A stretch of DNA of 64,000 nucleotides, taken from assembly GCA_003599025.1 (NCBI GenBank), contig QZIL01000002.1, positions 1,371 to 65,370 on the forward strand, in the 5' to 3' direction. This document shows, one piece after another, positions 43,256-63,493 of the stretch (position 1 is the first letter of the stretch; each line of letters begins with the position of its first letter). Under the pieces are notes generated by a model that saw nothing but the letters and a program-made list of their open reading frames with translations, was not told the DNA's origin and searched no databases. The position numbers and the translations under genes are program-made. This DNA is from Nitrospiraceae bacterium (GTDB lineage: Bacteria > Nitrospirota > Thermodesulfovibrionia > UBA6902).

Positions 43256-43388
43256 TCCTGTTCCCTCCTTAACATAAGTTATAGACAAATTATAGAGGAC
43301 CGGCTGTTACATGTGCGTTACAGTAAGGTTAAGATTTTTTTACCATCAGCAGGCGCCGTGATACGTTACAGTCGACAATGTACAGGAT

Positions 43389-44402
43389 TTACAGCTGTTT
43401 TGCAGTGCTGATTTCATCTTTCAGAAGTATCTCCACAGACGCCTTCCCGCGCAGGGACTTTGCGTAGAGATCAGCTTCCTGTTTTGCCTTTTCCTCAACG
43501 AGGGACTGACGTATCTGATCCTTGACGCTGTCATATGCCAGGATGGTTTCCGGCTTTCTTTCGCTGACCTTGAAAATATGAAACCCATATCCGGTCTCTA
43601 CAACATCGCTTGTTTCTCCAGGCTTCAGACTGAAGACAACGGCTTCGAGTTCCTTTTCAAGCTGCCCTGTCCTGACATAGCCTATATCGCCGCCGTCCGT
43701 CCTTGTAGGACCATCCGACTGCTCACGCGCAAGGGCCGCAAAATCCTGCCCGGCCTTCAGCTTCTTCATGATCTGGTCGGCCTTCTTCCTCGCCTCCTGT
43801 TTGCGGGAGTCCTCCAATTTAGGGTCAAGGTGAATGAGGATATGGCTTGCCCTGACCTGAAGCGGCTGCTTGAAGAGGTCCAGACGGCCCTCGTAATAGT
43901 TCATCATTTCGCTGTCAGTGACCGCAACCTTTGCGGCAAAGCGCCGTTCAATAAACTGCTGCACTGCGCTGTTTCTCTCCAGCCTGGCCCGCAATATATC
44001 CTCCGACATATTTTTCCTGCTTAACTGGTTTCTGAACTCCGTCACGCTCGGGAACTGCTGCATCAGCGCATTTATCCCCTTATTGACAGAGTTCTCATCC
44101 GGCTTGATGCCTGCCTTCCGGCTCTCCTGATTGAGGATTTCGAGCCGGACCAGGCTTTCAAGAACATCTACCTGGACGGCTTCGACCTGGCGCGTGGTAA
44201 GAGGCCTTCCAAACTCCAGAAGCGCCCTCTGTATTTTCAGGACCGCTTCATCAAATTCCACCTTTTCAATCGGCGCCCCGTTCACCATGGCCGCTTTATT
44301 GACCGGCTGGGGCTTCGCATCTTCCGCCCTGGCGGGAAAGGACATAACCATGAGACTGACAACCATTAACACGATATGATAAGTTAAGACTCTTCTCAGC
44401 AT
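43389..44402 (-). CDS. Periplasmic SurA/PpiD-like chaperone with parvulin (PpiC) PPIase domain
   Basis: It has a signal peptide and a SurA_N-like helical part, then RASHILIHL...DFAALAREQSDGPTRTDGGDIGYV...GYGFHIFKV, the parvulin rotamase core. Confidence 0.85.
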   Translation of the reverse strand: MLRRVLTYHIVLMVVSLMVMSFPARAEDAKPQPVNKAAMVNGAPIEKVEFDEAVLKIQRALLEFGRPLTTRQVEAVQVDVLESLVRLEILNQESRKAGIKPDENSVNKGINALMQQFPSVTEFRNQLSRKNMSEDILRARLERNSAVQQFIERRFAAKVAVTDSEMMNYYEGRLDLFKQPLQVRASHILIHLDPKLEDSRKQEARKKADQIMKKLKAGQDFAALAREQSDGPTRTDGGDIGYVRTGQLEKELEAVVFSLKPGETSDVVETGYGFHIFKVSERKPETILAYDSVKDQIRQSLVEEKAKQEADLYAKSLRGKASVEILLKDEISTAKQL

Positions 44403-44418
44403 TTTTCTTTACCTCACT

Positions 44419-45105
44419 TTATTTATTAATTTTCTTTTTTTCAATTTCCTCACGGTACTGCTGGAGGAGCTGCTCCAGCTCCACCTTCTTTACCTGTGTC
44501 AGGGGCTCCTTCTCCAGAAGGATTGTCCCCAGTCCCTTGTTCCTGTAATTCGTCACCAGCTCCTCCGCGATAATACCGAGGTCGGCATTATTCGCTTTGC
44601 AGCGGCCCAGGTCCTGCGCCGTCTTTTCCTGTTCAGCCTGAACAGTCTTTTTCTCAGCCGCTGACTTTTTTAACTCTGCCTGAAGCGCCTGCTTTTCTTC
44701 GGCCAGCTTTTTCAACTCACTGTCAAGGTCCTTGTTCTTCCGTCCCGTTTCCCGGGCCTCTTTATCGGCCCTGACAGCCGCCTCTTCCGATGTTTTGACC
44801 CTCAGCTCCAGCCCCTGCATCTGTCCGTTAAGTTTATTTAACTGCGCATCAAGTGTCTGCTTCTCGCTTCCGAGCCTGTCCAGTTCCGCCTGGGCCTGCT
44901 GTTCGGAAACAGACTCCTCATATTTCCCCTCCGCCATCTTTTTTTGCATGAAGGCGACTTTCTTTCCGGCCTCCTTGATCTTTTCATGCGCGGCCTCCCG
45001 CTCCTTATTGACTCTGCTGTTGCCAATGCTCAATCCGATGATCAGGCCGATAATGAGCGCTGCTACGGGGATTATGATTTTTAAAGGCCGGGACATACTG
45101 TTCAT
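44419..45105 (-). CDS. Membrane-anchored coiled-coil protein
   Basis: An N-terminal TM helix (IIIPVAALIIGLIIGLSIG) is followed by about 190 aa of heptad-rich Glu/Lys/Gln sequence. I recognise no family. Confidence 0.6.
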   Translation of the reverse strand: MNSMSRPLKIIIPVAALIIGLIIGLSIGNSRVNKEREAAHEKIKEAGKKVAFMQKKMAEGKYEESVSEQQAQAELDRLGSEKQTLDAQLNKLNGQMQGLELRVKTSEEAAVRADKEARETGRKNKDLDSELKKLAEEKQALQAELKKSAAEKKTVQAEQEKTAQDLGRCKANNADLGIIAEELVTNYRNKGLGTILLEKEPLTQVKKVELEQLLQQYREEIEKKKINK

Positions 45106-45120
45106 TTTTTACCTCCAGAC

Positions 45121-46977
45121 TTAAAATCTTGCATTTAAATCCACCTGCAGCACATCTATCGCCTGCTTAGGGCCGCTTATCTCATCCGCGGTCAGCCATC
45201 GAAGGGTAAGCCAGGCGTTCTTCATCAGGCCATATTCCGCTCCCAGTATCCAGCCCCTGGCATTTGTGCCTCCAAGGTGAAAGTCAGAATCCGTGAAGGC
45301 ATCCACAACTGCGTCGCCCCCCAGGTATTTATAATAGAGATACGCCTTCCAGGACGGGACCCAATCGTCGGGTGTCTCAATAGCGGGGGAATCAACGGAC
45401 ATCCCGAACTGATAGCCTGTAATATCTTTTTCAGGATCTGCTAGCCCGGTAAGATCAGAAACCTCGGATTTATCAAACCCGTAGTTCTTGACAAAATCGC
45501 CGAGGAAAACAACATGAACAGGGTCCCAGAACCCGATATCGAGGGTCCCGGTCAGGTTCATCTCCTTGAACTTTGATGCAAGCCCCACCTTGAAACTGTT
45601 GTTCGGATCAATATAGAACAAGGTGTTTCCCTTTTGCTGATACTGGGGGGCCGACCAGTCGGTGGGTCCGCTTTTATCCAGGGAATTATTGTTTCTCACG
45701 CCGGTGATGTTACTGAATAAATAGTAGGCCGCTCCGACTTTCGCGGATATCCCTTTCTTATGCTTCTTTTCCATCCCGATCTGTCCGCCCGTGAGCCACT
45801 TGGCCTTGGTGGAGAAGTCATCATACTGCAGGGGGAAAGCGCCTTCGGTAAGATAAAATGTCCATGAGTCTGTAATTGGCTTCCGCAAATTCAGGGCAAG
45901 CCCCTCGAAGTTTAAATCGCTGTCCCACACAAGGTCTGATGAAAACCAGGGATTGGGCATCCTTCCGCCATATGCAGTGAAAAGGGTCGGGAGGTAACCA
46001 GGTGACTTCTGATTAAACTTGAGATAGGCCTGCTCCAGGACTATGCCGTCTTTGTTCATATAATCGCCCAGGAGGGTATTGGTTGAAACTGGATTTGACG
46101 AATTCCCTGTAGCGAGACGTAAAGCGGCCTGCAGCTTTTGAGTTCCAAGCGGGTCTTCCGATATGTCCAGCTCAGTTCCGAAGCGGACCCGGTACTTGAA
46201 GCGATACTGGTTCGACCGTGTGTTAATAAGCTCCTGTGTATCAGCGCCCTGAGATATCCTGGTGAACTCATCAAAGTTGTTCTCGTCATACCGGTCATTC
46301 TCATACCGCAGCCGAACATCGCCGCTGAAACGCACGCGCTTGGTCCACTCAGGCGCGGCCGCGGCAAGTTCGGCGACCTTTCCGCCGTACAGCAGCTCCG
46401 CGATCTTCTGTTCAACGTATGACACTTTTTGATTGAGCTCCGCGATCTTTTCTTTCTCCTGTGCAGACGCCTCTTCAGCGGCAGGGACTGCATCTGCCGT
46501 CTTTATTTCCTTCGGCAGCGCCTCCTGCGCTTCGGTCTTCAACTGTTCAGGGATGCTTTTCCTGATCTCCTCGGTGACACTCGCAGTGATCTTCCCGATC
46601 TGTTCCTTCTCACGGTCCTGAAGCTCCCTGGACAACTCCTCCCTGACCTGGGCCATGATCTGTTCCTTGAGCTTTTGCATAAGTTCAGCGGTAACGGCTG
46701 CTGATATCCTGTCGATCATTTCCTGCTCGCTGAGCTGTGAAGCCGCAGGACCACCGTCTTTTTCTCCGGCCGGGGCAGATCCATCCTCCCGGCGCTGCTG
46801 ATCAGACCGGTCCGCTTCACTCCGGGGAGGTGTCTTCTCATGCCTGATCGTCAGCGGCACAGGGGCCGTGGCGCATCCGAAAATAATCGTCAGAAGCAAA
46901 ACCGCGATGCCTTTACTGATATGTCTTCTCAATTCCGTTGATGCTGTAAACACCGTAACTATGTCACTTCTTTTCAT
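45121..46977 (-). CDS. Outer-membrane protein: signal/possible lipobox, Glu-rich coiled-coil N-region, porin-like beta-barrel
   Basis: The N-terminus LLLTIIFGCATAP is a possible lipobox. Roughly residues 90-200 are charged coiled coil. The remainder shows alternating aromatic/Gly beta-strand patterning, and the C-terminal ...VLQVDLNARF is an OMP beta-signal with terminal Phe. Confidence 0.65.
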   Translation of the reverse strand: MKRSDIVTVFTASTELRRHISKGIAVLLLTIIFGCATAPVPLTIRHEKTPPRSEADRSDQQRREDGSAPAGEKDGGPAASQLSEQEMIDRISAAVTAELMQKLKEQIMAQVREELSRELQDREKEQIGKITASVTEEIRKSIPEQLKTEAQEALPKEIKTADAVPAAEEASAQEKEKIAELNQKVSYVEQKIAELLYGGKVAELAAAAPEWTKRVRFSGDVRLRYENDRYDENNFDEFTRISQGADTQELINTRSNQYRFKYRVRFGTELDISEDPLGTQKLQAALRLATGNSSNPVSTNTLLGDYMNKDGIVLEQAYLKFNQKSPGYLPTLFTAYGGRMPNPWFSSDLVWDSDLNFEGLALNLRKPITDSWTFYLTEGAFPLQYDDFSTKAKWLTGGQIGMEKKHKKGISAKVGAAYYLFSNITGVRNNNSLDKSGPTDWSAPQYQQKGNTLFYIDPNNSFKVGLASKFKEMNLTGTLDIGFWDPVHVVFLGDFVKNYGFDKSEVSDLTGLADPEKDITGYQFGMSVDSPAIETPDDWVPSWKAYLYYKYLGGDAVVDAFTDSDFHLGGTNARGWILGAEYGLMKNAWLTLRWLTADEISGPKQAIDVLQVDLNARF

Positions 46978-47083
46978 TATGTTCTCTCATGACCTCTCTT
47001 TCTGGGAAGTAAAACCAAACACTCATTAAGCAGTTTTTTTTAACTTCTGACTTCTCACTTCTTACTTTCCAACTTCTTTGTTG

Positions 47084-47797
47084 TTAGCTCTTAAAAGTCA
47101 TTTTGATCTTCATCGTACGAGGCATGCCGTCAGGCGGCGAATCGCTGAAACTGATATTGCCCAGGACCTGGTTTACCGTCTCATCCATTTTATGGTTCCC
47201 TGATGAGCCTATGATCCTGTGCTCAACGATATCGCCATCCGTGTCCACTTTCAATTTCACAACTACCTGAAGCGTTCCTCTTGGCAGCCCGCCTTCCATG
47301 TCCCAGAGCTTCATGATCCTTTTATGGATCTCACTTTCCACAAAGTGTGCATATCCGCCGTATTTAGACAGGAGAGACAGATTGCCGAGCCCGTTCCCTC
47401 CTTCTCCGGCAAGGAGGCTTCTCCCCCCTTTTTTCGCAACCAGCCCGAAGGCGTCGCTCCCCGCTGTGCCGTCCGAATCCACGCCGAGGCTGTCCCCCGC
47501 AGGCGCGTTGTCCGGCTCACCGGCAGGCCTGTCATTCGAGGCCGCCTCTTGCGGGACCTGAGCAATAACTTCCTCCTTCTGCTCCTGCCTGACCGGCTCA
47601 GGCTCCGGCGGTTTTTCCTTTATCTGCGGCGGGGGCGGCTTCAACAGGGTCACCATGGTAACGTTGTTTTTTTTCTGCGGACTATCGTCAGATATCACCA
47701 TTATTATGAAATAAACTGCAACAACGCACAGAGCGACCATCAGGGCAATGAACCCCCATGAGGCAGCGGACATTTTTTCAGTTTGTCTGTCGGACAT
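47084..47797 (-). CDS. tonB: TonB-family energy transducer
   Basis: It has an N-terminal TM anchor, a Pro-rich spacer (LKPPPPQIKEKPPEPEPV) and a C-terminal TonB_C-like domain (LQVVVKLKVDTDGDIVEHRIIGSSGNHKMDETV). Confidence 0.8.
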   Translation of the reverse strand: MSDRQTEKMSAASWGFIALMVALCVVAVYFIIMVISDDSPQKKNNVTMVTLLKPPPPQIKEKPPEPEPVRQEQKEEVIAQVPQEAASNDRPAGEPDNAPAGDSLGVDSDGTAGSDAFGLVAKKGGRSLLAGEGGNGLGNLSLLSKYGGYAHFVESEIHKRIMKLWDMEGGLPRGTLQVVVKLKVDTDGDIVEHRIIGSSGNHKMDETVNQVLGNISFSDSPPDGMPRTMKIKMTFKS

Positions 47798-47806
47798 ACG
47801 TTCCTC

Positions 47807-48217
47807 CTATTTGACGAGCTTTTGCGTCACGAGCGCAAGCTGGGTAATCTCCAGCCTCTGGAGCAAATCCAGCACCTCTATGACGCCTTTGTACGCTATT
47901 TTTTCATCTCCCCGGATCACCACGGGCAAATTAGGGTCCGCAGCTTTGTATTGGCGGAGCCTGTCTTCCAGTTCTCCCATAGTCACAGGGAAGCTGTCGA
48001 GATACATGGTCCCTTCCGAGGTGATGGTGATCGCCTTTGTCGTGGCCTTGACCTTGCCGGCAGCCGCGCTCGCCTTTGGAAGGTTGACGCTGATCCCCTG
48101 TACGGACGCCGTCACTACGATCATGAACACTAAAAGGAGGTTCCATGCAAGGTCCAGCATGGGAACGACGTTGATCTCATCGTATATCTCATGTTCTTCG
48201 TAGGGGTTATGCCTCAT
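47807..48217 (-). CDS. exbD: ExbD/TolR-family protein
   Basis: From ATG 48217 it reads MRHNPYEEHEIYDEINVVPMLDLAWNLLLVFMIV, the canonical ExbD TM with conserved Asp. This is followed by VNLPKA....ITITSEG..YLD and VVIRGDEKIAYKGVIEVLD. It overlaps the exbB-like gene by 11 nt. Confidence 0.85.
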   Translation of the reverse strand: MRHNPYEEHEIYDEINVVPMLDLAWNLLLVFMIVVTASVQGISVNLPKASAAAGKVKATTKAITITSEGTMYLDSFPVTMGELEDRLRQYKAADPNLPVVIRGDEKIAYKGVIEVLDLLQRLEITQLALVTQKLVK

Positions 48218-50063: not shown

Positions 50064-50066
50064 CTC

Positions 50067-56000: not shown

Positions 56001-59000
56001 GGTGACCCAGATGTTGTTGGAGTTGATCGCATCGTACAGTACCTCCGTATCTCCGGCGGTTGTCAAAACACTGCCCCCGGCCAGATAGATGCGGCTGCCG
56101 GCAGCGGTGGTAAGCGGGTTGTCATCATGATAAGGGTCCTCGTCGATGACAGCAGTTGTGAGTGTGATAGTCCCCAGGGGAGCTGCTAATGTGCCCCTGT
56201 GTTCGATCCCTGTGCCTGCCTCAACCGTAAGGTTTCCGCCTGCCGAGTAGATTGGACCGCCCGTACGTGTATCCGAGGGGAGAATGGTAATCTTGCCGTC
56301 GGCATGCAGGGTGTAATCAGAGTATATATTGGGATAGATTGTGCCGAGTGTATCCTGATACGTGTAAAAATTCCCCGGATAGATGCGGTCTGCTTTAAAA
56401 ATCATATCGCCTGCTGTGACAAGCTTGCCGGGTTTTACAAGCGCCTCTCCGGCTTTGCCTGAGAGCTTGTATGACGCCTGGCTCAGGCGAATGTCCCGCC
56501 TCGCTTCAATATGGACGTCCTTAAACCCGGTAAACTGCACGGTCCCGATCACATCGACCCATGTGCCTTTCAGGTTAATGAGAGCGTCTCCTGTCACGCC
56601 GCTTACCCCTGGTGTTTGTGTAACGGGGTAGTAACTGTTTGCCAGAACGATCCACGGCGCTTCAAGAGTCACCCCGTTCGACCCGGGACCCTCGATTTCC
56701 GGGGCATCGAGGGTCAACTTTCTGTTGAGTGCGACATTCATGGGCCCGCTGAACCGGAGAGATTTCCAGCTCCTCAGGGTCAGGTCATCGAAACCCAGGT
56801 CCTTATAACGGACAATGTCTTCGGCCCTGACAACCAGTGGATTGTTTTCATTTTGCCGGCTGATGGCCAGGGCGGCCCTCTTTATCCCTGCCATGTTCAC
56901 CCCGGTCTTCACATCGCCCATCCAGTCCATAGCATTTATGTAATTCAGAGTAAGGCTCCCGGGGTCTCCGGCCTCCTGGAAAGTGATAATGCTTCCATCC
57001 GCGGCCCTTATCCTGTTCTCGATTCTTTCAGACCCGGAGATGTCAATAATGGAACCTTCCTCCAGGGTCACATTGTACCCCGTAAGGGTAACGCTCCCTG
57101 CCTTGACCGGCTGATAATTCACCTCAAAGCCCTTTGGCGTTGTTGAAGGATCAGGCCGGTTGTAGCCTCCGGCCAATATTCTCGCGGTCGATTTGATTAT
57201 CATATCCGCGCTATTGCCTTCACCTTTAAGATTGATCGCACCCCCGCGAGCTTCGAGTGTCCCTGCTATCGTAACAGAGGTTTTCGCCTTACCCGAACCT
57301 GAAAAAGTGATTTCCCCCCCGGGCGCCGTCCGGACCGAGGCCCTTTCGGAAACAGTAATTCCAGCCTGATCGACATCAATGTCGTGCTGTCTTAAATTTC
57401 CCTGGTTATATCCCGTGGCCCCGGTAAAGTCACTGCCGGCAGTCCCTTTGAAGGAAGATGTCCCGGCCATGTATGCCGTGGACTCACTGAGCCTGAGGAG
57501 ATCGGGCCGGACGGGGACCTCAGCGCCCGCGACATTTGCCGCCTGCAGGGCAGACACAGGGGCGTTCAGCCGTACCAGAGACGTGGAGATGGCAATGTCG
57601 GGATCTATAACAATGTCTCCATAACTTTTAAGCGTGATGTTCGTAAAGCCTGTATCGTCGAAGCGATCGCCGGCCAGCAGGAGCGTCCCGCTGTTCAGAT
57701 CATCTTTGTACAGACCGCCAGATGCCGCATTAAAACCCGACCAGTCATTCCCTTCGGACCCCACACGGATCTCCGTGGATGTCAAGGTGATGGAGCCTCC
57801 TGATATCTTCCCGCTCCCATCAGCCAGTGCATATCCCCGGAGATCTCCATCAAGCATGATATTCGATCCCTGGATGGTCAATGCGCCTGCATTCGCGCCC
57901 TTGACTTTGCCCCCGGGGTCAATAGAATAACCGCCGCTTACATCCGCAATGGCCCCGGCCTGTATGAAGACACCATCTCCCAAATCCGTTTCATCAAGAA
58001 TTTCAATAACGCCGCCCCCGGTCAGGCCGTATCTGAAATCGGTATTGCCTGCTTTTCCCGCATGAGTATTGTCGATCCTCTCCCCTGAAACATCCAGCAT
58101 GCTTCCTTGTCCGAGGACAATCCTCTCCTGCAGCGGAACAAAGCTGCCTTCCTCTTTAAGGTTCCCGTTATAATCCGTGGGACTTGTAAGGTTCTCCCTG
58201 ATTAACATCCTGATCGTACCGGCAGGCGCCTTAATCTTCCCTCTGTGCTCAATCCTGCGCGTATCAATTTCAAAAGCGCCTCCCGGCTGCAAAGTAATAC
58301 CGGCCCCCTGCGCCGTCTGGACAGTCTCCAGCGCCGCTAACTGTATGGTATCCAGTTTCGCGTCATTCAGGGTCTTCGCTGAAAGGACAGTAGGCTGTTT
58401 CTCCGGCAAGCTGGAATCAGGGGTGATACCGGAATGGGGTGATGTTTCGGAAAGGATTAATATAGAAGACGGCTGGCTGCTCAACGCTTCATTATATGTA
58501 TCAATATCGCCTAAGATAAACGTGCCTGCCTTCGGAGCTTCAAGGCCGCGCGCCGCAGAAATGGCATACTCCTCTGATCCCCTGTCTGTAGTTACAAGAT
58601 TCTGGTGAATTCCACGCATCACACTCCCGTCGAGCCGACCGTCCAGGTAGACCGTAGCCGCTTTCAACCTGAGTGTACCTGCATCGCCGCCCTTTAACTG
58701 GCTGGGGACATGCGTCTGCAGCGGAGATGCGCCGCCGTAATAAAGGCCGTAATATGAGTCCTTAGTGCCGAACCGTTCAAATACCTTCTCATACTGCCCG
58801 ATAGTCTTGTCATACCTGATATTCAAGGGGGCACTGCTGATATCATATATCTTCTTGCCTGACACTAATTTTGTTGAATTTATAAAACCCTCGGCATAGC
58901 GGGCCGCGCCGCCGGAAAAATCAAGCAGCGCCCCCTCTTTGATAATTATGTCGCCCGCATTGACTGTTATGTCTATCATCCCGGTCTGGGACTTCCACTT

Positions 59001-60473
59001 CCACGTTCCGGTTTTGTCGTCTTTTTCTTTTCTAAGGGCGCCCCCGATGCTGCGCTCCAGGGCCGTCCTTTCCCCGCTCAGGTACACCTGTGAAAGATCG
59101 CCGATGGCAGTGCCTGAAGTGACAGGGGTTGTGATCTTCATTCCCGGTACGAGACCGCTCTTCTGTCCATAGGCATCGCGGAGCTCGACACTGGTCAGTT
59201 TGAAGTCAGAGAGGATTGATGGAGGAAGATATGCCTCAACGCCGCTTACATCGATACGGCTGCCTGCTTCGAGATATACCCTCTGTCCGGCTTTCAGCAC
59301 GACATTTCCTGCAGGCGCAGTAACGGCCCCCCTCAGCTCGATCGAGCCTGCTGACGTCTCTGAAATACTGCCTTCAGGATCCAGAATATCCAGGCCCTTG
59401 ATGGTCACCTCAGGCTGGATAATAAATGTATCACTGACCGTTTCTGTTGTTGACGGGTTGACCGGAAGGGAGATTTCACTGTTCTTCCCTGTTGTTACTT
59501 TGCCTGCGGCCCTGAGCTCTACCTCTCCTTTGTTGTTCTTGAAGGCGGTCATGGACCGAATCGTCCCCATCTGATCAACAGCTCCTCCGTACATGCCTGC
59601 CAGTCCCCCATCGGCATACAGCCGTCCCCCTTCCTGGTTCACGGAATAGCCGGACCCGGCTTGTTTTACGATGACATAATAAGCCACTCTATTATTGTTA
59701 TGTACCAGATCTGCATCAGTACCCGCAATCAGGCCTATCTGCCCTGCCGGGGTGTTAATCACTCCGGCATTTTCTGTAAAAGGCCCGAGGAGAAAGACCT
59801 GCCCTCCGTCTTTGGCGTTTATCTCTCCATGGTTCGAGACGAAGGCGTTAGGATCAAGCGTTGCCGTGTCGTCAATCTCTTTGCGGTAATTCTCATGTTT
59901 GAATTTGAGGACGTTGCCGATAAAATCCTCATCCTTGATGTTCAAAGCCGAGGCCGCGAGGCTGCCGACGTTGATCCTGGAGCCAGGGCCGAAGAGGATG
60001 CCGTTCTGGTTTATGAGATATATCTTTCCGTCTGCTGTAAGTTTTCCTAAAATGTAGGAAGGGTCCTTGTCCCATATCCGGTTGAGGGCGGCCCAGTCTG
60101 CATTTCCCTTCTGGTCGAAACGGACCTCTGAATCAGCTCCGATATCAAAGGTCTTCCAGTTTATTATGGCCTTTTCTTCGGTCTGGTTAATTGTCATTTT
60201 ATTGCCCTGAATACCCGGCGTTTCCGCGCCCCTCTCAATGTTGTTTAACTCTGGAAGAGCATGCGCCGATGGTCCATTGAACGTCCTCATCCCCCCGGAA
60301 AAGCCGGGGATAGTGACCCCGGGACCTGTTTTATTGGGTAAATTTATATTAGGAGCCGCGGACTTTCCGCTGTATACGCCGGGTTGGGCGGCCAGTACGA
60401 AATCAGGAAGCAGCACAAGGAGGCACAAAATCACCCGGAGCATCTTGTCTATAAAGCCCTTTAACATATTCAT
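50067..60473 (-). CDS. Giant two-partner-secretion exoprotein (TpsA; filamentous haemagglutinin family), 3468 aa
   Basis: After the signal peptide, the N-terminal TPS domain reads NQTEEKAIINWKTFDIGADSEVRFDQ...ALNRI...SYILGKLTADGKIYLINQNGILFGPGSRINVGSLAASAL. About 3000 aa of Gly/Asp/Thr/Ala-rich beta-helix-type sequence follow. The conserved C-terminal region GDITIWSDEGNINAGRGS... is like the C-terminal domain of FHA-family proteins, and the acidic tail is QEEEEE. Confidence 0.9.
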   Translation of the reverse strand: MNMLKGFIDKMLRVILCLLVLLPDFVLAAQPGVYSGKSAAPNINLPNKTGPGVTIPGFSGGMRTFNGPSAHALPELNNIERGAETPGIQGNKMTINQTEEKAIINWKTFDIGADSEVRFDQKGNADWAALNRIWDKDPSYILGKLTADGKIYLINQNGILFGPGSRINVGSLAASALNIKDEDFIGNVLKFKHENYRKEIDDTATLDPNAFVSNHGEINAKDGGQVFLLGPFTENAGVINTPAGQIGLIAGTDADLVHNNNRVAYYVIVKQAGSGYSVNQEGGRLYADGGLAGMYGGAVDQMGTIRSMTAFKNNKGEVELRAAGKVTTGKNSEISLPVNPSTTETVSDTFIIQPEVTIKGLDILDPEGSISETSAGSIELRGAVTAPAGNVVLKAGQRVYLEAGSRIDVSGVEAYLPPSILSDFKLTSVELRDAYGQKSGLVPGMKITTPVTSGTAIGDLSQVYLSGERTALERSIGGALRKEKDDKTGTWKWKSQTGMIDITVNAGDIIIKEGALLDFSGGAARYAEGFINSTKLVSGKKIYDISSAPLNIRYDKTIGQYEKVFERFGTKDSYYGLYYGGASPLQTHVPSQLKGGDAGTLRLKAATVYLDGRLDGSVMRGIHQNLVTTDRGSEEYAISAARGLEAPKAGTFILGDIDTYNEALSSQPSSILILSETSPHSGITPDSSLPEKQPTVLSAKTLNDAKLDTIQLAALETVQTAQGAGITLQPGGAFEIDTRRIEHRGKIKAPAGTIRMLIRENLTSPTDYNGNLKEEGSFVPLQERIVLGQGSMLDVSGERIDNTHAGKAGNTDFRYGLTGGGVIEILDETDLGDGVFIQAGAIADVSGGYSIDPGGKVKGANAGALTIQGSNIMLDGDLRGYALADGSGKISGGSITLTSTEIRVGSEGNDWSGFNAASGGLYKDDLNSGTLLLAGDRFDDTGFTNITLKSYGDIVIDPDIAISTSLVRLNAPVSALQAANVAGAEVPVRPDLLRLSESTAYMAGTSSFKGTAGSDFTGATGYNQGNLRQHDIDVDQAGITVSERASVRTAPGGEITFSGSGKAKTSVTIAGTLEARGGAINLKGEGNSADMIIKSTARILAGGYNRPDPSTTPKGFEVNYQPVKAGSVTLTGYNVTLEEGSIIDISGSERIENRIRAADGSIITFQEAGDPGSLTLNYINAMDWMGDVKTGVNMAGIKRAALAISRQNENNPLVVRAEDIVRYKDLGFDDLTLRSWKSLRFSGPMNVALNRKLTLDAPEIEGPGSNGVTLEAPWIVLANSYYPVTQTPGVSGVTGDALINLKGTWVDVIGTVQFTGFKDVHIEARRDIRLSQASYKLSGKAGEALVKPGKLVTAGDMIFKADRIYPGNFYTYQDTLGTIYPNIYSDYTLHADGKITILPSDTRTGGPIYSAGGNLTVEAGTGIEHRGTLAAPLGTITLTTAVIDEDPYHDDNPLTTAAGSRIYLAGGSVLTTAGDTEVLYDAINSNNIWVTEDKKKPGQFDAADDTNIVTLPFGQETLPQKGIELEADETIVREGAKIDASGGGSFFAYRFLPGIEGTGNPLEKSGRYIVFKDNGFQMPGTSVYLKGGGGLSEGMYTMVPLGPGNAQNARYAFMPGAYILELQAGPSIPGPWLVSKYGYPLVVGYAGVADTTILGTRPQVYSVRSASDVMTEGHFDKQGMIAGNAGDLTVKGNTTIIDGDLNAGPLASIYRGGKISLSGKNISVEQMTGSLLPGGFGYETSFDSTAYLMDLKDKLTIDARGLSNREFREVELGYLNPDTPQDKLNTESIIFESGTYLEAAGISVSARDNITIMEGTSERPTTLYARTEKDKDSGEGVLTLNTPGSLSAGPDSLLHAAHNIIFEVNKVDEIQGALQVDNSAITLKSRAITFTEARKTSNDAGLFLNKKLLQAFSQFEDMTFIAGYSDVATEIRFMDAYDLIAAESITMDAARIIGDNGPGVTLAAPAVTLTNSGDRTDASSTAGHDTEAGIFAVNASEQVTVGSGDILLGGFRTIALNSAGDVVFKGKGSLATGNADLEITAARVTTGAAHEAGGTYQPPDFRVIAGAGKNDLNPANLIRMMRPDNGQAATTGVPGGTLEFAARKIELGTVLQVDGGDIKLTTAGAKGEDGKFLAPSDEDGIILKDGGSIIARGTDDAPGGRVVLATNFIDETGQEQSGKIELQNGSLIDVSAGAQGDAGIITLSAPVGGVMIYGDVKGAAGKKKDKSIGRGGSLVVDTNKFAKEIIEFSTLISKVEEGGFTASLDLRARSGDIDIDNGEMLKAHKIKLTADGGAINVDGIIDASAYEGSYYPDGGTVELYAQDDLNLDGSILAGGINGGEGGYVQLSSSEGDVIVNAEEINVSGSEGGIVYLRARRNDSEGFRDVAISLNHSVTGASALYVEAVRRYGYDGFNFTSALDDAHAHYANAPVERLSNKVDADTTSFHYLPGIEVVSIGDINWNTQWDVSGVRFGGEQEPGVLTLRAGGNLYINNNLVDHPTSLANLPGSAGRDSWAFNLVAGSYTVGAAPLAVVHGKGDLKIADQKVVYTEHAPVRFASGRDTLVGRGQDTPLGFMIDPTMRYNLASPYGDIQGDIGRDLIINGGAIQTATGDIAIDIGRDLQLNTAIVSGLSTLGAIRTTGMLRTDDTTDVDPPYDDPSSKPKPMLADKDNYFNTPNSNTLTYYWRYADGGNITLDVGRHVGTISNGEWTSAMPPATNAWDYFTPILKPGGSTRNNTVLEKYGWFSASYARQSVYTLSSPKEKKQFDTTSGLAAMGGGDLYIRTGSDFLTQAGAFGEGDLAIYAGGNVDGRLLNRMGQGEIHAMGNFGSADKSQQIELFDSRMSVAAEGAMKIGSVLNPSLASDQLNQYYWINCTYTQYTGISLKAGEDLTFAGVSPLYTPTGHDISKFAKILPANVEIKAGGNILLLSDDLTLTSSPDGRLRLDAGVDIVQAVRTASSYSGKAAGITMSDIAPKYWYGLFRVYKDLVSNGGLTWNTERTLYNHHGYFKPEDAVLQALASPLHSGDTREIGISAGRDIRNLGLYAAKKTEIRAGRDILDMTYEGQNISTGDVTMIKAGRDIRMQYEKKSKTGGLIQGGPGVFLVQAGNSIDLGTSNNAVVDQKLIYGGLQAIGNGNNVLLGTEKSTLVVLSGYDQNLPADMIRTFFDDIRDAGDQYAELLSEGKSAEAAELRETTRDATIKPLLGTPSGEGNINMIASQIGTSIGQSDIFVIAAGSMNLGKTALPIAGQKSDDFTGVWTGGGGAINIFTGYDVNVNESRIMTFYGGDITIWSDEGNINAGRGSRTAVSASPARMEEYPAGSGIYRKVFSPPVLGSGIRAVTFDPDGSGPLAMPEPGDIHLTAPSGVIDAGEAGITGGKIILAALEVKNSANISFSAGSVGVPQASTSGAALGGLTGGAGSVAQPGQMAGDATPGIAAERTAQAAQMIDDILMKWLDVKVIDLVQEEEEE

Positions 60474-60490
60474 TGGTCCCTCCAGGCCGA

Positions 60491-62092
60491 TTAAAAAATT
60501 GCCTTTACCAGAAAATGGACTCTCTGGTCGCCGCTCTTTATCCTGTCCGTCGACCTGAGGGCCACTGCCCAGTCCAGTTCGTATTCAATATTCTTTGTTA
60601 TCGAGCCCCGCACTCCTGCCCCCGCCCCCTCTATTTTTGTGCTCTTGTCCTGTCCGGGAAGCGGTGATTTGATGGACATTGCCGCCACGTCATAGAAGAT
60701 ATAGGGGCCCGTCCGGAGCCACTTTCCAATTCCGGTCGTTTCAACAGGGTCAGGGAAAGAGACCTCCAACGTACAATGCACACCGTTGTCTCCTGAGGCT
60801 TCGCTTTCTTTATATCCCCTCACGGTGTCCATGCCGCCTGCCGTATATTGCTCATTGTCGATAAGCGGCTGATCAGACACCTGTCCGTCCACTTTAGCGA
60901 AAAGGACCATTCCGAGCGGCAGCTTCTGTGTCCGCTGGATGCCCAGATTGGCATAGAGGTAATTTGCCCTTGCCTTGAAGCGCTTGTCCTCAAACTCCGT
61001 TTCCCTGGAGCCTAATCCGCGCAGGGACAGGTTAAGTCCCCCGCTGAACTGGGTCGTCCCGCCCAACTCATCAGGCAGTGAAGCGCTGTACGAAAGTGAG
61101 AGCGGCAGATACGAAACGGGGGTCTCCGTTGTCTCTCCGCTTTCTGTTGTGAAACCGACGGCCTGATCGAAATGCTTGTAATCTATGCCGAGTGTCATGT
61201 TATGGTCGTAGAGCTTATATGACGGCAGGGGCATCACATAGCGCGCCCCGAATATCTCCCCCTTGCCTGTCACCTTGAACCCCTCGCCGAACGCGGTGTC
61301 ACTGTCAGACCAGATGCCGTAAAACGCAAGCTGGCGGTCTTTGTCCCATGGCGACGGAAGTACATATGAAGCGCCCAGCACCTGCGCCTCCTTTATCTTC
61401 TGCGGCGATGCCTGGTACTGAAAGGACAGGCTGTGTTCCTTTTGCCAGAGATTGTCATAGCGGACCATGGCGTTCAGCCGCAGTTCAGACGTGTCATGAC
61501 TGGCCCTGTTGTTGAGCTCAAGGGAGCCGTGCAAAGGCAGACGGTCCTCAACTTTCAGCTCTATATCGATGGTCCCCGGTTTCTTTCCGGGGGACATACT
61601 CGGGGTGACCTTGAAATCAGGATTTCTGTTCAGGAAGGCGATATCACTCTGCACGTCCGGCAGATAGATTATCCTTCCCGGCCAGAGGGACTTCAGGTCC
61701 CTCATGACCTTCCCCGATGTAAAATACCGGTTTCCGGTGACCTTCACTTGCCCTATCCGTCCCTCTATTACCTCAAGCTTTACGATGTTGTCCTGCAATG
61801 TCTGTTCCGGGATATTCACGATCACCGAAGGATACCCTGCATTGTGATAGAGCCTCTCAAGGGCGTCCCGCGCCTTTTCTACGTCAGCAACTGTCTTTCC
61901 GGTGCCGGTGAAGGGCATAACGGCGGCCCTCAGCTCAAGCGGGGACAAAAGGCTGTTCCCTGTTATTTCAAAATCCCTGATCATAAATCCTATGTCCTCG
62001 TTGTCCGCAGCCGGGCATTCTTCATGCGCCAGCGCATTGATCACAAAAATAGCAGCCATAAGATAGAAGATGAACGGAGTAATCCTCTTCAT
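60491..62092 (-). CDS. TpsB transporter (ShlB/FhaC/HecB family; POTRA domains plus Omp85-type barrel)
   Basis: POTRA reads IRDFEITGNSLLSPLELRAAVMPFTGTGKTVADVEKARDALERLYHNAGY. A second POTRA follows, then a barrel containing the TAGGMDTVRGY (VRGY/F L6 loop) motif and a terminal Phe (LVKAIF). Confidence 0.9.
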   Translation of the reverse strand: MKRITPFIFYLMAAIFVINALAHEECPAADNEDIGFMIRDFEITGNSLLSPLELRAAVMPFTGTGKTVADVEKARDALERLYHNAGYPSVIVNIPEQTLQDNIVKLEVIEGRIGQVKVTGNRYFTSGKVMRDLKSLWPGRIIYLPDVQSDIAFLNRNPDFKVTPSMSPGKKPGTIDIELKVEDRLPLHGSLELNNRASHDTSELRLNAMVRYDNLWQKEHSLSFQYQASPQKIKEAQVLGASYVLPSPWDKDRQLAFYGIWSDSDTAFGEGFKVTGKGEIFGARYVMPLPSYKLYDHNMTLGIDYKHFDQAVGFTTESGETTETPVSYLPLSLSYSASLPDELGGTTQFSGGLNLSLRGLGSRETEFEDKRFKARANYLYANLGIQRTQKLPLGMVLFAKVDGQVSDQPLIDNEQYTAGGMDTVRGYKESEASGDNGVHCTLEVSFPDPVETTGIGKWLRTGPYIFYDVAAMSIKSPLPGQDKSTKIEGAGAGVRGSITKNIEYELDWAVALRSTDRIKSGDQRVHFLVKAIF

Positions 62093-62098
62093 CTTTCG

Positions 62099-62989
62099 CT
62101 ATTTCCCCATGCCGCTTGCGGCCAGCTTTGCGTGCTCAGCCTTGTCGACCGTCACGTCACAGAACAGTTTTTCCCCTCCGAATGGATGCCTGTAGTTAAT
62201 GGTAATAATTTCGTCAGTTACGTCGGTAATACGGCCTACAAGGGGACCGCTGCGGACCAGGCTGCCTTTGCGGGCTTTGATATCGAGTTTATAATTCTTT
62301 TCATCATGATAAATACGTCCCAGTCCAAAAGGTGTCTGTATCACATCTCCGGGAGTAGCGTTAAAACGGACCGTTACCTTCCCCCCGGTGACAGCGGTAA
62401 CTCTCCCCGGGAATGACGGGTCGATGCTAAATGATTGCCCTACTTCCGGTGACTTGCCGGTCCGGTCCGCGTATTCGTCCACCGGCATTGTCATTACCTT
62501 CGGCCGCGTGCGAACACGCGCCATTCGCAGTATGTAATACTCTTCGTCTTTCGCCGATGACTCCAGGGCAGTGATCTCCAGTTGACGCCGCTCTCCCTCT
62601 TGCATGCCGGCCACCGCTCTGGCAAGCCGTTCCAGGACCGCTTCATCAAAGGGCTCTTCAGGCCTTAATGGGAACGGCTCATCAGGGCGGACCGCTACAA
62701 CCGAGAGGGGGCCGGTCTCTTTTCTCGTGACAAAAATACCGGACTTCGACTGTTCATCGGGGACGCTGCCGGAGGCCGCGACCACTTCTCCGCTTTTCAA
62801 ACGGCATAAATAACTGATTTCAGCCCTGTCCCCGGTCTCAACAATCCCGGCCTTTGCAGTGTCTGAGACATCACCTTGAACATCCTTAGCAGTGTCTGCT
62901 GCCCAACTAAACACGGATTGCGTCAGCAGCAAAGCCGCCGTCAAACTGATCATAGTCCCGCGGGAAAATATCCGGGGATTACCCCTCAT
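62099..62989 (-). CDS. Secreted FKBP-type PPIase, SlyD-like with insert-in-flap domain
   Basis: Start taken at ATG 62989 (GGGGGAGAca-ATG), giving MRGNPRIFSRGTMISLTAALLLTQSVFSWA; the track ORF extends to 63079. GDRAEISYLCRLKSGEVV, VAGMQEGERRQLEI, and INYRHPFGGEKLFCDVTV match FKBP/SlyD (DFNHPLAGKxLxFxV). Confidence 0.7.
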   Translation of the reverse strand: MRGNPRIFSRGTMISLTAALLLTQSVFSWAADTAKDVQGDVSDTAKAGIVETGDRAEISYLCRLKSGEVVAASGSVPDEQSKSGIFVTRKETGPLSVVAVRPDEPFPLRPEEPFDEAVLERLARAVAGMQEGERRQLEITALESSAKDEEYYILRMARVRTRPKVMTMPVDEYADRTGKSPEVGQSFSIDPSFPGRVTAVTGGKVTVRFNATPGDVIQTPFGLGRIYHDEKNYKLDIKARKGSLVRSGPLVGRITDVTDEIITINYRHPFGGEKLFCDVTVDKAEHAKLAASGMGK

Positions 62990-63044
62990 TGTCTCCCCCA
63001 GCGATTGTGTCCGCGCAAAAACCTGTTTTTGATATGCCGATTTT

Positions 63045-63251
63045 TTATAAAGCTCCATGATGCACACCATTCCCTCCATTTTTCTTTATCCCGTTCCCTC
63101 CATGCATGAGCGCCGTCTGTGCGACTTCGACCTCCTCGGATTTTTCTACCCGCCCGAGGCTGCCCTGGGTGAAGTTGATTTTTAGGTACCCGCTGAATTC
63201 CTCATCGGAAAGACTCTTGATTGCATCGGCAAGTCTTTTCATTCTGTCCAT
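63045..63251 (-). CDS. Small protein, YezD/DUF2292-like; first gene of the TPS operon
   Basis: Start at ATG 63251 (ACAGGAGGTttatca-ATG). FSGYLKINFTQGSLGRVEKSEEVEV resembles the DUF2292 pattern (GSVTIxxxxGRVVQIEKTEK). Confidence 0.4.
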   Translation of the reverse strand: MDRMKRLADAIKSLSDEEFSGYLKINFTQGSLGRVEKSEEVEVAQTALMHGGNGIKKNGGNGVHHGAL

Positions 63252-63493
63252 TGATAAACCTCCTGTCATAAGTCAAACCTCGTGATATGAACTTATTGAA
63301 TTACACTTCAATGCCACACATTGGAAAGTAAATGCAACAGAGAATTACAAGTTGATGACTGGTATCGTACCACCCGCTTTGTTAATACATCATTACATGG
63401 TTGTTAAACTTTTATTAAAAGAAAGTAAGGGCGTCGGAGTAAAGATTTTTTCCATTCAGCCGATAATGAATGCCAGGATATGCAACACTATTA

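What the first reader, a model, noticed from the sequence alone, without database searches (positions are those of the whole stretch)
43389..63251. Two-partner secretion system hard-wired to its own ExbB-ExbD-TonB motor, two PPIases and a coiled-coil/beta-barrel pair (20-kb operon)
Ten genes from 63251 down to 43389 are all on the minus strand. Junctions range from an 11-nt overlap to a 55-nt gap, apart from one 107-nt gap at 46978-47083. In order they are:
- a YezD-like 68-aa protein;
- a secreted SlyD/FKBP PPIase;
- TpsB;
- the 3468-aa TpsA;
- a DUF2341-LamG-ExbB fusion;
- ExbD;
- TonB;
- a 618-aa coiled-coil plus beta-barrel OM protein;
- a 228-aa membrane-anchored coiled-coil protein;
- a SurA/parvulin PPIase.
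Classical TPS systems need only TpsA and TpsB, and no energy source at the outer membrane is known for them. ExbBD-TonB normally powers plug-containing TonB-dependent receptors, and none is encoded here. The tpsA stop (50067) lies 3 nt from the exbB-like start (50063), so adjacency is unlikely to be accidental.
Hypothesis: a proton-motive-force-driven step acts in export, anchoring, retraction or release of a giant beta-helical exoprotein. The lectin-like periplasmic domain of the ExbB fusion and the coiled-coil proteins would form an envelope-spanning scaffold, and the two PPIases would act as dedicated periplasmic chaperones. To my knowledge the only precedent for TonB-dependent protein export is the Oar/PopC case in Myxococcus, which is unrelated to TPS.
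Basis: partly seen in the sequence, partly recalled or inferred. Interest (0 to 1): 0.8.

Follow-up and report, generated by a model that had tools for sequence, protein, structure and literature searches.

The report
TonB-type motor wired to TPS adhesin
This operon links a giant two-partner-secreted surface protein to its own proton-driven ExbB-ExbD-TonB motor, and it proves to be a distant copy of the uncharacterised pdtA-PA0699 locus of Pseudomonas aeruginosa, so the gene association is not new but how it works is still an open question.

Summary
The ten minus-strand genes exist as described (43389-63269). TpsB, TpsA, DUF2341-LamG-ExbB, ExbD, TonB, a Porin_5 barrel and a SurA/PpiC PPIase are confirmed. 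The "YezD" label has no support and the FKBP label only marginal support.

The linkage is not chance:
- 24 of 25 ExbB-fusion loci with at least 2 kb of upstream sequence, from Nitrospirota and Desulfobacterota, have a DUF3739-type TpsA immediately upstream.
- 5 of 5 DUF3739 hits in 251 Desulfobacterota genomes have the fusion immediately downstream.
- 0 of 11 generic Verrucomicrobiota TpsA genes have an Exb neighbour.

P. aeruginosa PA0690-PA0699 (pdtA, pdtB, exbB2, exbD2, tonB4, PA0696 to PA0699) has the same domains in the same order. I verified this on a P. aeruginosa contig and on Klebsiella, Methylosinus and Burkholderia replicons. That locus is still called uncharacterised.

New here:
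- These TpsAs carry a conserved strand-like motif (WLDVKVIDL in the window) in a predicted disordered C-terminal tail.
- The "barrel" is a plug-less porin of 16-18 strands with a helical periplasmic stalk, not a TonB-dependent receptor.

Best reading: a dedicated motor acts on the TPS module, possibly through the TpsA tail. That step is inferred, not shown.

The parts
63045..63269 (-). It is not a conserved core part.
   Evidence: No Pfam or NCBIfam match, even at E <= 10. tblastn finds relatives near four other clusters, in varying position and strand.
62099..63079 (-). 326-aa secreted protein that is weakly FKBP/SlyD-like. It is a lineage-specific accessory.
   Evidence: All FKBP hits are below threshold. 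A hydrophobic signal-like segment is present. Among 30 relatives it was found only in G127, of the same genus.
60491..62092 (-). TpsB transporter: POTRA domains plus an Omp85/ShlB barrel. Only about 13 residues lie between the predicted signal cleavage site and POTRA1, so no FhaC-like H1 helix is evident.
   Evidence: Pfam ShlB 3e-22 and POTRA_2 7e-15. Sequence. 33% identity to P. aeruginosa PdtB, E 1e-91.
50067..60473 (-). TpsA, a 3468-aa exoprotein. The TPS domain covers residues 89-305 (about 59559-60209) and DUF3739 covers residues 3284-3401 (about 50271-50624). No toxin or other domain was found.
   Evidence: Pfam. The last 368 aligned residues are 31% identical to the PdtA C-terminal part, E 5e-27.
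50070..50288 (-). Predicted disordered C-terminal tail of TpsA (residues 3396-3468). It carries the conserved strand-like motif WLDVKVIDL at 50091-50117, followed by an acidic end.
   Evidence: AF2 gives pLDDT below 50 for residues 327-399 of the 399-residue segment. The motif is present in 23 of 25 TpsA tails, against a shuffle mean of 0.45 and a maximum of 4. PdtA has VITVQVLGF.
48207..50063 (-). ExbB-type proton-channel subunit. A signal peptide and a periplasmic DUF2341 plus LamG (concanavalin-like) module precede the three transmembrane helices.
   Evidence: Pfam. Alignment A1 shows an invariant AWW..W start of the mature protein. 35% full-length identity to P. aeruginosa ExbB2, E 7e-109.
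47807..48217 (-). ExbD (136-aa form), with the conserved transmembrane Asp.
   Evidence: Pfam ExbD 8e-26. Sequence. 51% identity to ExbD2.
47084..47797 (-). TonB-like protein: an N-terminal transmembrane helix (with no His in it), a Pro-rich spacer and a TonB_2 C-terminal domain.
   Evidence: Pfam TonB_2 3e-11 and TonB_C 2e-6. Sequence. Only weak similarity to TonB4, E 0.01.
45121..46977 (-). Porin_5 outer-membrane protein. It has a lipoprotein-type signal (..FGC), a long charged helical periplasmic stalk, and a plug-less barrel of 16-18 strands ending in ..ARF.
   Evidence: Pfam Porin_5 1e-121. AF2 model. Foldseek's best matches are the OmpM1 attachment porin, OprB, OmpF, PorB, AlgE and DcaP. 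33% identity to PA0696, E 2e-67.
44419..45105 (-). 228-aa coiled-coil protein with an N-terminal hydrophobic segment and a small conserved C-terminal domain. It is the PA0697 counterpart.
   Evidence: No family match. Its C-terminal part resembles the gene in the same position in Klebsiella (E 4e-6), Methylosinus (E 4e-9) and P. aeruginosa (E 6e-5).
43389..44402 (-). SurA_N plus PpiC-type parvulin PPIase. It is the PA0699 counterpart.
   Evidence: Pfam Rotamase 1e-28 and SurA_N_3 5e-13. 29% identity to PA0699, E 5e-21.

Best explanation
The operon is the Nitrospirota member of a widely but patchily distributed module, best known as P. aeruginosa pdtA-pdtB-exbB2-exbD2-tonB4-PA0696-PA0697-PA0699.

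Shown:
- A special class of TpsA is almost always encoded next to a dedicated ExbB/ExbD/TonB paralogue. This TpsA class has a DUF3739 beta-helix end followed by a flexible tail that bears a conserved strand-like motif.
- The ExbB of that paralogue carries a periplasmic DUF2341-LamG module.
- A plug-less porin with a periplasmic helical stalk, a coiled-coil protein and a parvulin PPIase usually accompany them.

Inferred:
- TpsB exports the giant beta-helix N-terminus first, and the C-terminal tail stays in the periplasm, as happens for the FhaB prodomain and the C-terminal half of CdiA (established knowledge, not tested here).
- The proton-driven ExbB5-ExbD2 motor, through the TonB-like protein and/or the ring of lectin-like domains, grips that tail by beta-strand pairing, as TonB grips a TonB box. 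It then applies force or a conformational signal that controls holding, completion of export, or release of the surface protein.
- The stalked porin and the coiled-coil protein form the envelope-spanning scaffold, and the PPIase chaperones the unfolded giant in transit.
For: - Starting from the ExbB fusion, 24 of 25 loci with at least 2 kb of upstream sequence have the TpsA C-terminus immediately upstream. ExbD and TonB follow in every locus with enough downstream sequence, and Porin_5 in 23 of 24 such loci. These loci come from Nitrospirota and many Desulfobacterota orders, including the isolate Desulfobulbus elongatus DSM 2908.
- Starting from the other side, all 5 DUF3739 matches in 251 Desulfobacterota genomes have the fusion directly downstream.
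- As a specificity control, 0 of 11 generic Verrucomicrobiota TpsA genes are followed by ExbB, ExbD or TonB.
- A second, independent architecture in Verrucomicrobiota (L080) reads TpsB-TpsA-plain ExbB-ExbD-TonB-ExbD, with no porin, coiled-coil protein or PPIase in the next 9 kb. The shared minimum is therefore TPS plus motor. Its TpsA ends in a TonB-box-like ..GRVTVILP...
- The same domains occur in the same order in P. aeruginosa, on a Klebsiella plasmid, in Methylosinus and in Burkholderia.
- The tail motif is conserved in 23 of 25 tails, against 0.45 expected, and lies in a low-confidence segment that does not pack on the beta-helix.
- The genome has another ExbB beside a true TonB-dependent receptor.
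- In P. aeruginosa the genes are co-induced (PMC2729926, PMC7035377).
Against: - No binding or energy dependence was tested.
- The motif is C-terminal, whereas canonical TonB boxes are N-terminal. It could instead be a chaperone or TpsB recognition signal, or a site for the LamG ring.
- TPS export has been reconstituted without any energy input (review PMC5422565).
- P. aeruginosa tonB4, tpsA and tpsB transposon mutants showed no change in VreI-induced zebrafish lethality (PMC2729926). That assay does not measure secretion.
- The window's TonB resembles TonB4 only weakly (E 0.01).
- L036 has the motor but no Porin_5 in 9 kb, and L017 has the motor but no TpsA in 10 kb.
Confidence: 0.45

Rival explanations
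1. Nutrient capture in the manner of HxuCBA. The TpsA is an extracellular binder or scavenger and the Porin_5 channel is the import route. The motor acts on the porin's periplasmic stalk to gate or energise uptake, and TPS export itself needs no energy.
For: - HxuA/HxuB works with a TonB-dependent importer (PMC4873976).
- The P. aeruginosa locus is induced by phosphate starvation together with an alkaline phosphatase secretion system (PMC7035377).
- Porin_5 has a diffusion-porin fold.
- A Methylomagnum plasmid places a Porin_5 gene next to phoU and 8 kb from a TPS pair.
Against: - Porin_5 has no plug and no conserved N-terminal strand motif. Its N-terminus is helical, with SHOCT-like repeats in most homologues.
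- The Verrucomicrobiota variant keeps TPS plus motor without any adjacent porin.
- This reading does not explain the conserved TpsA tail motif.
Confidence: 0.25
2. A Tol-like envelope tether. The motor, the TonB/TolA-like protein, the stalked porin and the coiled-coil protein locally tie the outer membrane to the inner membrane and cell wall where a very large adhesin is anchored. They carry mechanical load rather than driving secretion.
For: - The ExbB and ExbD parts score better against TolQ/TolR models than against ExbB/ExbD models (126 vs 81 bits; 82 vs 62 bits).
- The best structural match of the porin is OmpM1, an outer-membrane attachment porin with a coiled-coil stalk.
- Two coiled-coil elements long enough to span the periplasm are present.
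Against: - No TolB or Pal is present.
- The genome has a separate TolQ-sized paralogue.
- The Verrucomicrobiota variant lacks the porin and the coiled-coil protein.
- The stalk helices are predicted with low confidence.
Confidence: 0.15
3. Trans-envelope signalling. The TonB-like protein and motor report the state of the surface protein to a regulator, as in cell-surface signalling. In Pseudomonas, VreA has a TonB/TolA-like C-domain.
For: In Pseudomonadota the module sits beside a VreA/ECF sigma/anti-sigma trio (PMC2729926).
Against: There is no sigma/anti-sigma pair on this contig, and the only FecR match is on contig C38. Most Nitrospirota and Desulfobacterota loci show none in their flanks.
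Confidence: 0.07
4. Chance adjacency of an ordinary TonB system and an ordinary TPS pair.
For: None beyond the fact that both kinds of genes are common.
Against: The linkage is near-obligate in both directions across several phyla, and it is absent for generic TpsA genes.
Confidence: 0.02

Closest known systems
P. aeruginosa pdtA-phdA-pdtB-exbB2-exbD2-tonB4-PA0696-PA0697-PA0698-PA0699 (sigma-VreI/PhoB regulon)
   Same: - TpsA with TPS plus DUF3739 and the tail motif.
- TpsB.
- ExbB with DUF2341 plus LamG (35% identity over the full length).
- ExbD (51% identity).
- A TonB-like protein.
- Porin_5 (33% identity).
- A coiled-coil protein of about 220 aa.
- A PpiC-type PPIase.
The last six are in the same order.
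   Different: - In the window tpsB precedes tpsA.
- There is no YbjN (PA0698) gene, no PA0691-like gene and no adjacent VreA/VreI/VreR or LysR.
- The window has an extra FKBP-like gene and an extra small ORF.
- The window's porin is a predicted lipoprotein, and its stalk has lost the SHOCT-like motif.
- Regulation by phosphate is unknown here.
HxuCBA of Haemophilus influenzae (TPS pair plus TonB-dependent haem receptor)
   Same: A TPS exoprotein is functionally tied to the Ton system.
   Different: In Hxu the link runs through a classical receptor with a plug, and the motor is the housekeeping one. Here there is no receptor, and a dedicated motor is encoded in the operon.
Canonical ExbB-ExbD-TonB with TonB-dependent transporters
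   Same: A MotA/ExbB channel, an ExbD with the transmembrane Asp, and a TonB with a Pro-rich spacer and a C-terminal domain.
   Different: - ExbB has a periplasmic module of about 370 residues.
- The TonB transmembrane helix lacks the His.
- The only barrels in the operon are an Omp85 transporter and a plug-less porin.
OmpM (Veillonella) and DcaP (Acinetobacter): porins with an N-terminal periplasmic coiled-coil stalk
   Same: The predicted architecture of the Porin_5 protein is a helical stalk plus a general-porin barrel. OmpM1 is the top Foldseek match (E 5e-13, target-normalised TM-score 0.66).
   Different: There is no SLH domain and no detectable sequence similarity. Oligomeric state is unknown.
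FhaB/FhaC and CdiA/CdiB (TPS systems whose C-terminal part is held in the periplasm)
   Same: A giant beta-helical TpsA with a C-terminal region likely to be retained in the periplasm. This is a model for how a tail could meet a periplasmic partner.
   Different: The window's TpsA has no prodomain, toxin or immunity features. Those systems have no associated motor.

Membership tests
Two-partner secretion (type Vb) | TpsA with an N-terminal TPS secretion domain | tested here: met
   PF05860 at residues 89-305, E 5e-24, 85.9 bits against a cut-off of 33.5.
Two-partner secretion (type Vb) | Cognate TpsB with POTRA domains and an Omp85/ShlB barrel, encoded next to TpsA | tested here: met
   POTRA_2 and ShlB are both over their cut-offs. 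The gene ends 17 nt before the tpsA start.
Two-partner secretion (type Vb) | Export of TpsA depends on TpsB | not testable with these tools
   This needs genetics or biochemistry.
Pdt-type TPS/ExbB2-ExbD2-TonB4 locus (P. aeruginosa PA0690-PA0699) | TpsA ends in DUF3739 followed by a tail with the hydrophobic strand motif | tested here: met
   DUF3739 E 3e-29. Motif WLDVKVIDL in the window against VITVQVLGF in PdtA.
Pdt-type TPS/ExbB2-ExbD2-TonB4 locus (P. aeruginosa PA0690-PA0699) | ExbB carries N-terminal DUF2341 plus LamG and is followed by ExbD and a TonB-like gene | tested here: met
   35% full-length identity to ExbB2.
Pdt-type TPS/ExbB2-ExbD2-TonB4 locus (P. aeruginosa PA0690-PA0699) | Porin_5 protein (PA0696), coiled-coil protein of about 220 aa (PA0697) and PpiC PPIase (PA0699) downstream, in that order | tested here: met
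   Porin_5 E 2e-67, PPIase E 5e-21. The coiled-coil match is weak (E 6e-5 to PA0697, 4e-9 to the Methylosinus copy) but sits in the same position.
Pdt-type TPS/ExbB2-ExbD2-TonB4 locus (P. aeruginosa PA0690-PA0699) | YbjN-family gene (PA0698) in the cluster | tested here: not met
   No PF10722 match anywhere in the genome, which is 70% complete. It is also absent from the Nitrospirota and Desulfobacterota loci annotated.
Pdt-type TPS/ExbB2-ExbD2-TonB4 locus (P. aeruginosa PA0690-PA0699) | Adjacent VreA/ECF sigma/anti-sigma cell-surface signalling trio and phosphate-starvation control | tested here: not met
   None in the window. The single FecR match is on contig C38. Regulation itself is not testable here.
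TonB-dependent transporter system | A 22-strand barrel with an N-terminal plug and TonB box as the motor's outer-membrane partner | tested here: not met
   There is no Plug domain on contig C2. The operon's barrel has 16-18 strands, has no plug and has a porin fold.
Tol-Pal system | TolB and Pal encoded with TolQRA | tested here: not met
   No TolB or OmpA-like Pal domains in any operon protein.
Contact-dependent inhibition (CdiA/CdiB/CdiI) | A pretoxin/VENN region, a variable C-terminal toxin and an immunity gene | tested here: not met
   TpsA has only TPS and DUF3739, and the next gene is exbB.

The most novel reading that the evidence does not exclude
Type Vb secretion is not always free of an energy input. 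In this widespread class, a dedicated proton-driven Ton-like motor grips a TonB-box-like strand in the periplasmic C-terminal tail of the TpsA, and pulls on, holds or releases a giant surface beta-helix. That would be a force-transmitting adhesin machine, comparable in logic to motor-driven surface adhesins of gliding bacteria.
Probability: 0.3. Interest if true: 0.85.

Novelty: new member of a known kind. Interest (0 to 1): 0.6.

Why it matters
Reviews of two-partner secretion state that no energy source acts at the outer membrane (PMC5422565). Yet a specific TpsA class is almost never found without its own ExbB-ExbD-TonB paralogue, from Pseudomonas to Nitrospirota.

The window shows that this module is ancient or highly mobile. 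It also shows that the module does not depend on the Pseudomonas regulatory context. The comparison yields two concrete handles for experiments: the C-terminal tail motif of TpsA and the DUF2341-LamG ring on ExbB.

Because P. aeruginosa has the same locus and is genetically tractable, the open question of what the motor does for the secreted protein becomes directly testable.

Tried and rejected
- YezD identity of the first ORF: no support.
- Firm FKBP identity of the second gene: only marginal hits.
- A TonB box at the N-terminus of Porin_5: the alignment shows helical SHOCT-like repeats there, not a strand motif.
- Sequence search of Porin_5 against PDB: no hit. Only the fold search was informative.
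- A link to exosortase/EPS sorting, prompted by an exosortase and a pro-kumamolisin gene inserted in one relative and by EPS-type neighbours on this contig. It is not conserved across loci, so I dropped it as the core explanation.
- A conserved PstS-like binding protein as a shared neighbour: the copies near the window and on the two methanotroph plasmids are not homologous by BLASTP.
- Operon boundaries from consensus scans: uninformative, with counts equal to the shuffles.
I solved this through the plasmid collection and a protein look-up.
- Literature searches for DUF3739, Porin_5/PF16930 and tonB4 found no functional study of this module.

Full report
**Observation**

Pfam confirms most of the labels:
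- TpsB (POTRA_2 plus ShlB).
- A 3468-aa TpsA with an N-terminal TPS domain and a C-terminal DUF3739.
- A 618-aa protein combining DUF2341, a concanavalin-like LamG domain and a MotA/ExbB channel.
- ExbD.
- A TonB_2 protein.
- A Porin_5 protein (E 1e-121).
- A coiled-coil protein with no family.
- A SurA_N plus parvulin PPIase.

The small first ORF has no family match, even at E <= 10. The 'FKBP' gene reaches only sub-threshold scores.

The 3-nt gap between the tpsA stop and the exbB start depends on a GTG start at 50063. That start has a GGAGGAG ribosome-binding site just upstream. Its encoded N-terminal extension is conserved in an 86% identical relative. The alternative ATG start used by a gene caller would leave a signal peptide that is too short.

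ExbD keeps the transmembrane Asp expected of an active motor. No Plug-domain receptor is on this contig. Four are elsewhere in the genome, one of them 3.5 kb from a plain ExbB. This motor is therefore an additional paralogue.

**Is the linkage more than chance?**

I looked up three relatives of the ExbB fusion (51-70% identity) on their contigs. All three have the order TpsA(DUF3739)-[TpsB]-fusion-ExbD-TonB-Porin_5-small protein; a PPIase follows in two of them, but not in the 51% identical relative.

A scan of species-representative genomes returned 80 loci. I scored them with tblastn using the window's proteins.
- Of the loci with a full-length fusion and at least 2 kb of upstream sequence, 24 of 25 have the TpsA C-terminus ending within about 10-400 nt of the fusion start, or about 3.7 kb upstream where tpsB lies between (L015, L026, L030).
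- ExbD and TonB follow in every locus with enough downstream sequence.
- Porin_5 follows in 23 of 24 such loci.
- The loci come from Nitrospirota and many Desulfobacterota lineages: Geobacter-like, Syntrophobacteraceae, Desulfosarcinaceae, and the isolate Desulfobulbus elongatus DSM 2908.

In the reverse direction, a family search for DUF3739 in 251 Desulfobacterota genomes found five matches. All five have the fusion directly downstream.

As a specificity control, I examined eleven other TpsA genes from 201 Verrucomicrobiota genomes. They lack this C-terminal region, and none is followed by ExbB, ExbD or TonB.

One Verrucomicrobiota genome (L080) shows an independent arrangement: TpsB-TpsA-plain ExbB-ExbD-TonB-ExbD, without porin, coiled-coil protein or PPIase. 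A second, L077, shows TpsB-TpsA-ExbB-ExbD before its contig ends. The shared minimum is therefore TPS plus motor.

**Precedent**

A literature search shows the opposite.
- In P. aeruginosa PAO1, PA0690-PA0699 are pdtA (TpsA), phdA, pdtB (TpsB), exbB2, exbD2, tonB4, PA0696 ('putative outer membrane porin'), PA0697, PA0698 (YbjN) and PA0699 (PpiC-type PPIase).
- All are induced by sigma-VreI and phosphate starvation (PMC2729926, PMC7035377).
- Llamas et al. (2009) already noted that TPS, ExbBD and PA0696 homologues travel together in several Proteobacteria.

I verified the homology by sequence.
- A Klebsiella quasipneumoniae plasmid carries the whole set, with the same Pfam domains, next to an ECF sigma/anti-sigma pair.
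- Methylosinus (alpha) and Burkholderia (beta) replicons carry it too.
- A P. aeruginosa contig fetched through its 'DUF2341 domain-containing protein' shows this order: TPS+DUF3739 (4181 aa), DUF772, ShlB, DUF2341+LamG+ExbB (608 aa), ExbD, TonB_2, Porin_5, a 220-aa protein, YbjN, Rotamase, a 141-aa protein, LysR.

| Window protein | P. aeruginosa counterpart | Identity | E-value |
|---|---|---|---|
| TpsB | PdtB | 33% | 1e-91 |
| ExbB fusion | ExbB2 | 35% over the full length | 7e-109 |
| ExbD | ExbD2 | 51% | 4e-41 |
| Porin_5 | PA0696 | 33% | 2e-67 |
| SurA-like PPIase | PA0699 | 29% | 5e-21 |
| Coiled-coil protein | PA0697 | 22% | 6e-5 |
| TonB | TonB4 | 26% | 0.01 |

The window is therefore a new, distant member of a known but unexplained module.

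It differs from the Pseudomonas locus in several ways:
- tpsB comes before tpsA.
- There is no YbjN gene and no adjacent signalling trio.
- It has an extra FKBP-like gene and a small ORF. The FKBP-like gene recurs only in one same-genus genome; small-ORF relatives turn up near four other clusters.

**New anatomy**

First, the TpsA tail. I aligned the last 400 residues of TpsA from 23 loci.
- The DUF3739 region continues the beta-helix.
- Near the very end there is a conserved hydrophobic, strand-like motif: WLDVKVIDL in the window, VITVQVLGF in PdtA, TISVEILGY in Klebsiella.
- A simple pattern for this motif matches 23 of 25 tails. Shuffled tails give a mean of 0.45 matches and a maximum of 4.
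- The two exceptions are the Verrucomicrobiota proteins, which end instead in ..GRVTVILP.., an even more TonB-box-like strand.
- The AF2 model of the last 399 residues has a confident beta-helix up to about residue 324. It then gives pLDDT below 50 for the final 73 residues, which carry the motif. A conserved motif in an unstructured tail is what a partner-binding site looks like. This is an inference.

Second, the Porin_5 protein.
- The AF2 model (mean pLDDT 69.7; the barrel is mostly above 80) has long N-terminal helices and a barrel of 16-18 strands with no plug.
- Foldseek ranks the Veillonella attachment porin OmpM1 first. OmpM1 is a porin with a coiled-coil stalk. OprB, OmpF, PorB, AlgE and DcaP follow.
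- Most homologues have one or two SHOCT-like helical repeats at the N-terminus. The window copy has a lipoprotein-type signal and a charged helix instead.

Third, the ExbB fusion and TpsB.
- The mature ExbB fusion begins with an invariant AWW..W motif. With ExbB's known N-out topology (established knowledge), this places five DUF2341-LamG modules in the periplasm around ExbD.
- TpsB has almost no sequence between its signal peptide and POTRA1, so it seems to lack the FhaC-type plug helix.

**Mechanism**

Shown: a dedicated motor is genetically locked to a particular TPS class.

Inferred: the TpsA tail remains periplasmic, as do the C-terminal parts of FhaB and CdiA. The TonB-like C-domain or the lectin-like ring engages it, so that proton-motive force controls holding, completion of export or release of the giant surface protein. 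The stalked porin and the coiled-coil protein act as scaffold, and the parvulin as chaperone.

I rate the whole explanation at 0.45. The orthology and functional coupling are close to certain. The tail-gripping step is perhaps 0.3.

Rivals:
- A nutrient-capture system in the manner of HxuCBA, with the porin as the energised or gated channel (0.25).
- A Tol-like local envelope tether (0.15).
- Signalling (0.07).
- Chance adjacency (0.02).

The Verrucomicrobiota variant, which has no porin, argues that the motor's essential partner lies within the TPS pair.

**Distribution**

The module is rare and patchy.
- The fusion was found in 2 of 120 other genomes sampled across the phylum.
- Among 30 relatives it was found in 1 of 6 other same-genus genomes and in none of the rest.
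- It was found in about 2% of the Desulfobacterota sampled.
- It also occurs on Klebsiella plasmids.
- The operon's G+C (0.51-0.55) exceeds that of the first 30 kb of the window (about 0.44-0.47).

Together these points suggest horizontal spread.

**Verdict**

The claim of novelty must be lowered to 'new member of a known, uncharacterised kind'. Interest remains moderate to high, because the module challenges the energy-free picture of type Vb secretion and can now be tested in P. aeruginosa.

Noticed in passing
window 43000-63300 compared with 1-32000: The operon region has G+C of 0.51-0.55, against about 0.44-0.47 in the first 30 kb. The module was found in only one of six other same-genus genomes. 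It looks like a horizontally acquired island.
   Followed up: partly
window 42597-43288 (minus strand): Two more same-strand genes follow the PPIase: an 83-aa ORF with no family and a low-molecular-weight phosphotyrosine phosphatase (Wzb-like). They are not conserved next to the module in relatives.
   Followed up: partly
L012 (G000:C2:65000-84999): Upstream on the same contig lie two subtilases, a PstS-like binding protein, a group II intron reverse transcriptase (L012:5991-7241), a TPR protein and a Wzz/GNVR chain-length determinant (L012:14379-15959). This is an exopolysaccharide-type neighbourhood.
   Followed up: no
L007:13343-16892: In a 68% identical relative, a pro-kumamolisin-type peptidase and an exosortase (EpsH) gene are inserted between tonB and the Porin_5 gene. 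This hints at a link to PEP-CTERM protein sorting in that genome only.
   Followed up: partly
G000: C34:277-513, C34:19072-19302, C87:11433-11663, C7:30631-35715: DUF2341 also occurs in four very large open frames (1330-3339 aa) elsewhere in the genome. The domain is therefore not specific to the motor subunit.
   Followed up: no
alignment A2 (Porin_5 homologues), columns about 180-290: Most Porin_5 proteins of this module carry one or two SHOCT-like helical repeats (..LLKxKGVISxEEA..) at the periplasmic N-terminus. The Nitrospirota copies add a lipoprotein-type Cys, and the window copy has lost the repeat.
   Followed up: partly
L080:3412-12276 and L077: The Verrucomicrobiota variant has a TpsB with three POTRA domains (832 aa), a short TpsA (1336 aa), a plain ExbB, ExbD, TonB and a second ExbD. 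Its TpsA C-terminus is ..GRVTVILP...
   Followed up: partly
L095 (K. quasipneumoniae plasmid pKqq_SB98_1) and hit H9 (K. pneumoniae plasmid): The complete module with its ECF sigma/anti-sigma pair is carried on a conjugative IncFIB plasmid next to IS elements and an ars operon. The module is therefore mobile in Enterobacteriaceae.
   Followed up: partly
L016:9905-12163; G099:C2:2699988-2701790: In one Nitrospirota relative the ExbB fusion and ExbD lie in one open frame of about 753 codons, reported with one internal TAG. This could be read-through, a fusion or a sequencing artefact.
   Followed up: no
window 33656-39020: This stretch holds a P-type cation ATPase with an N-terminal HMA_2 domain, a SAM synthetase and CorA, and a second small HMA_2 protein lies at 41816-42244. 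It is unrelated to the finding.
   Followed up: no
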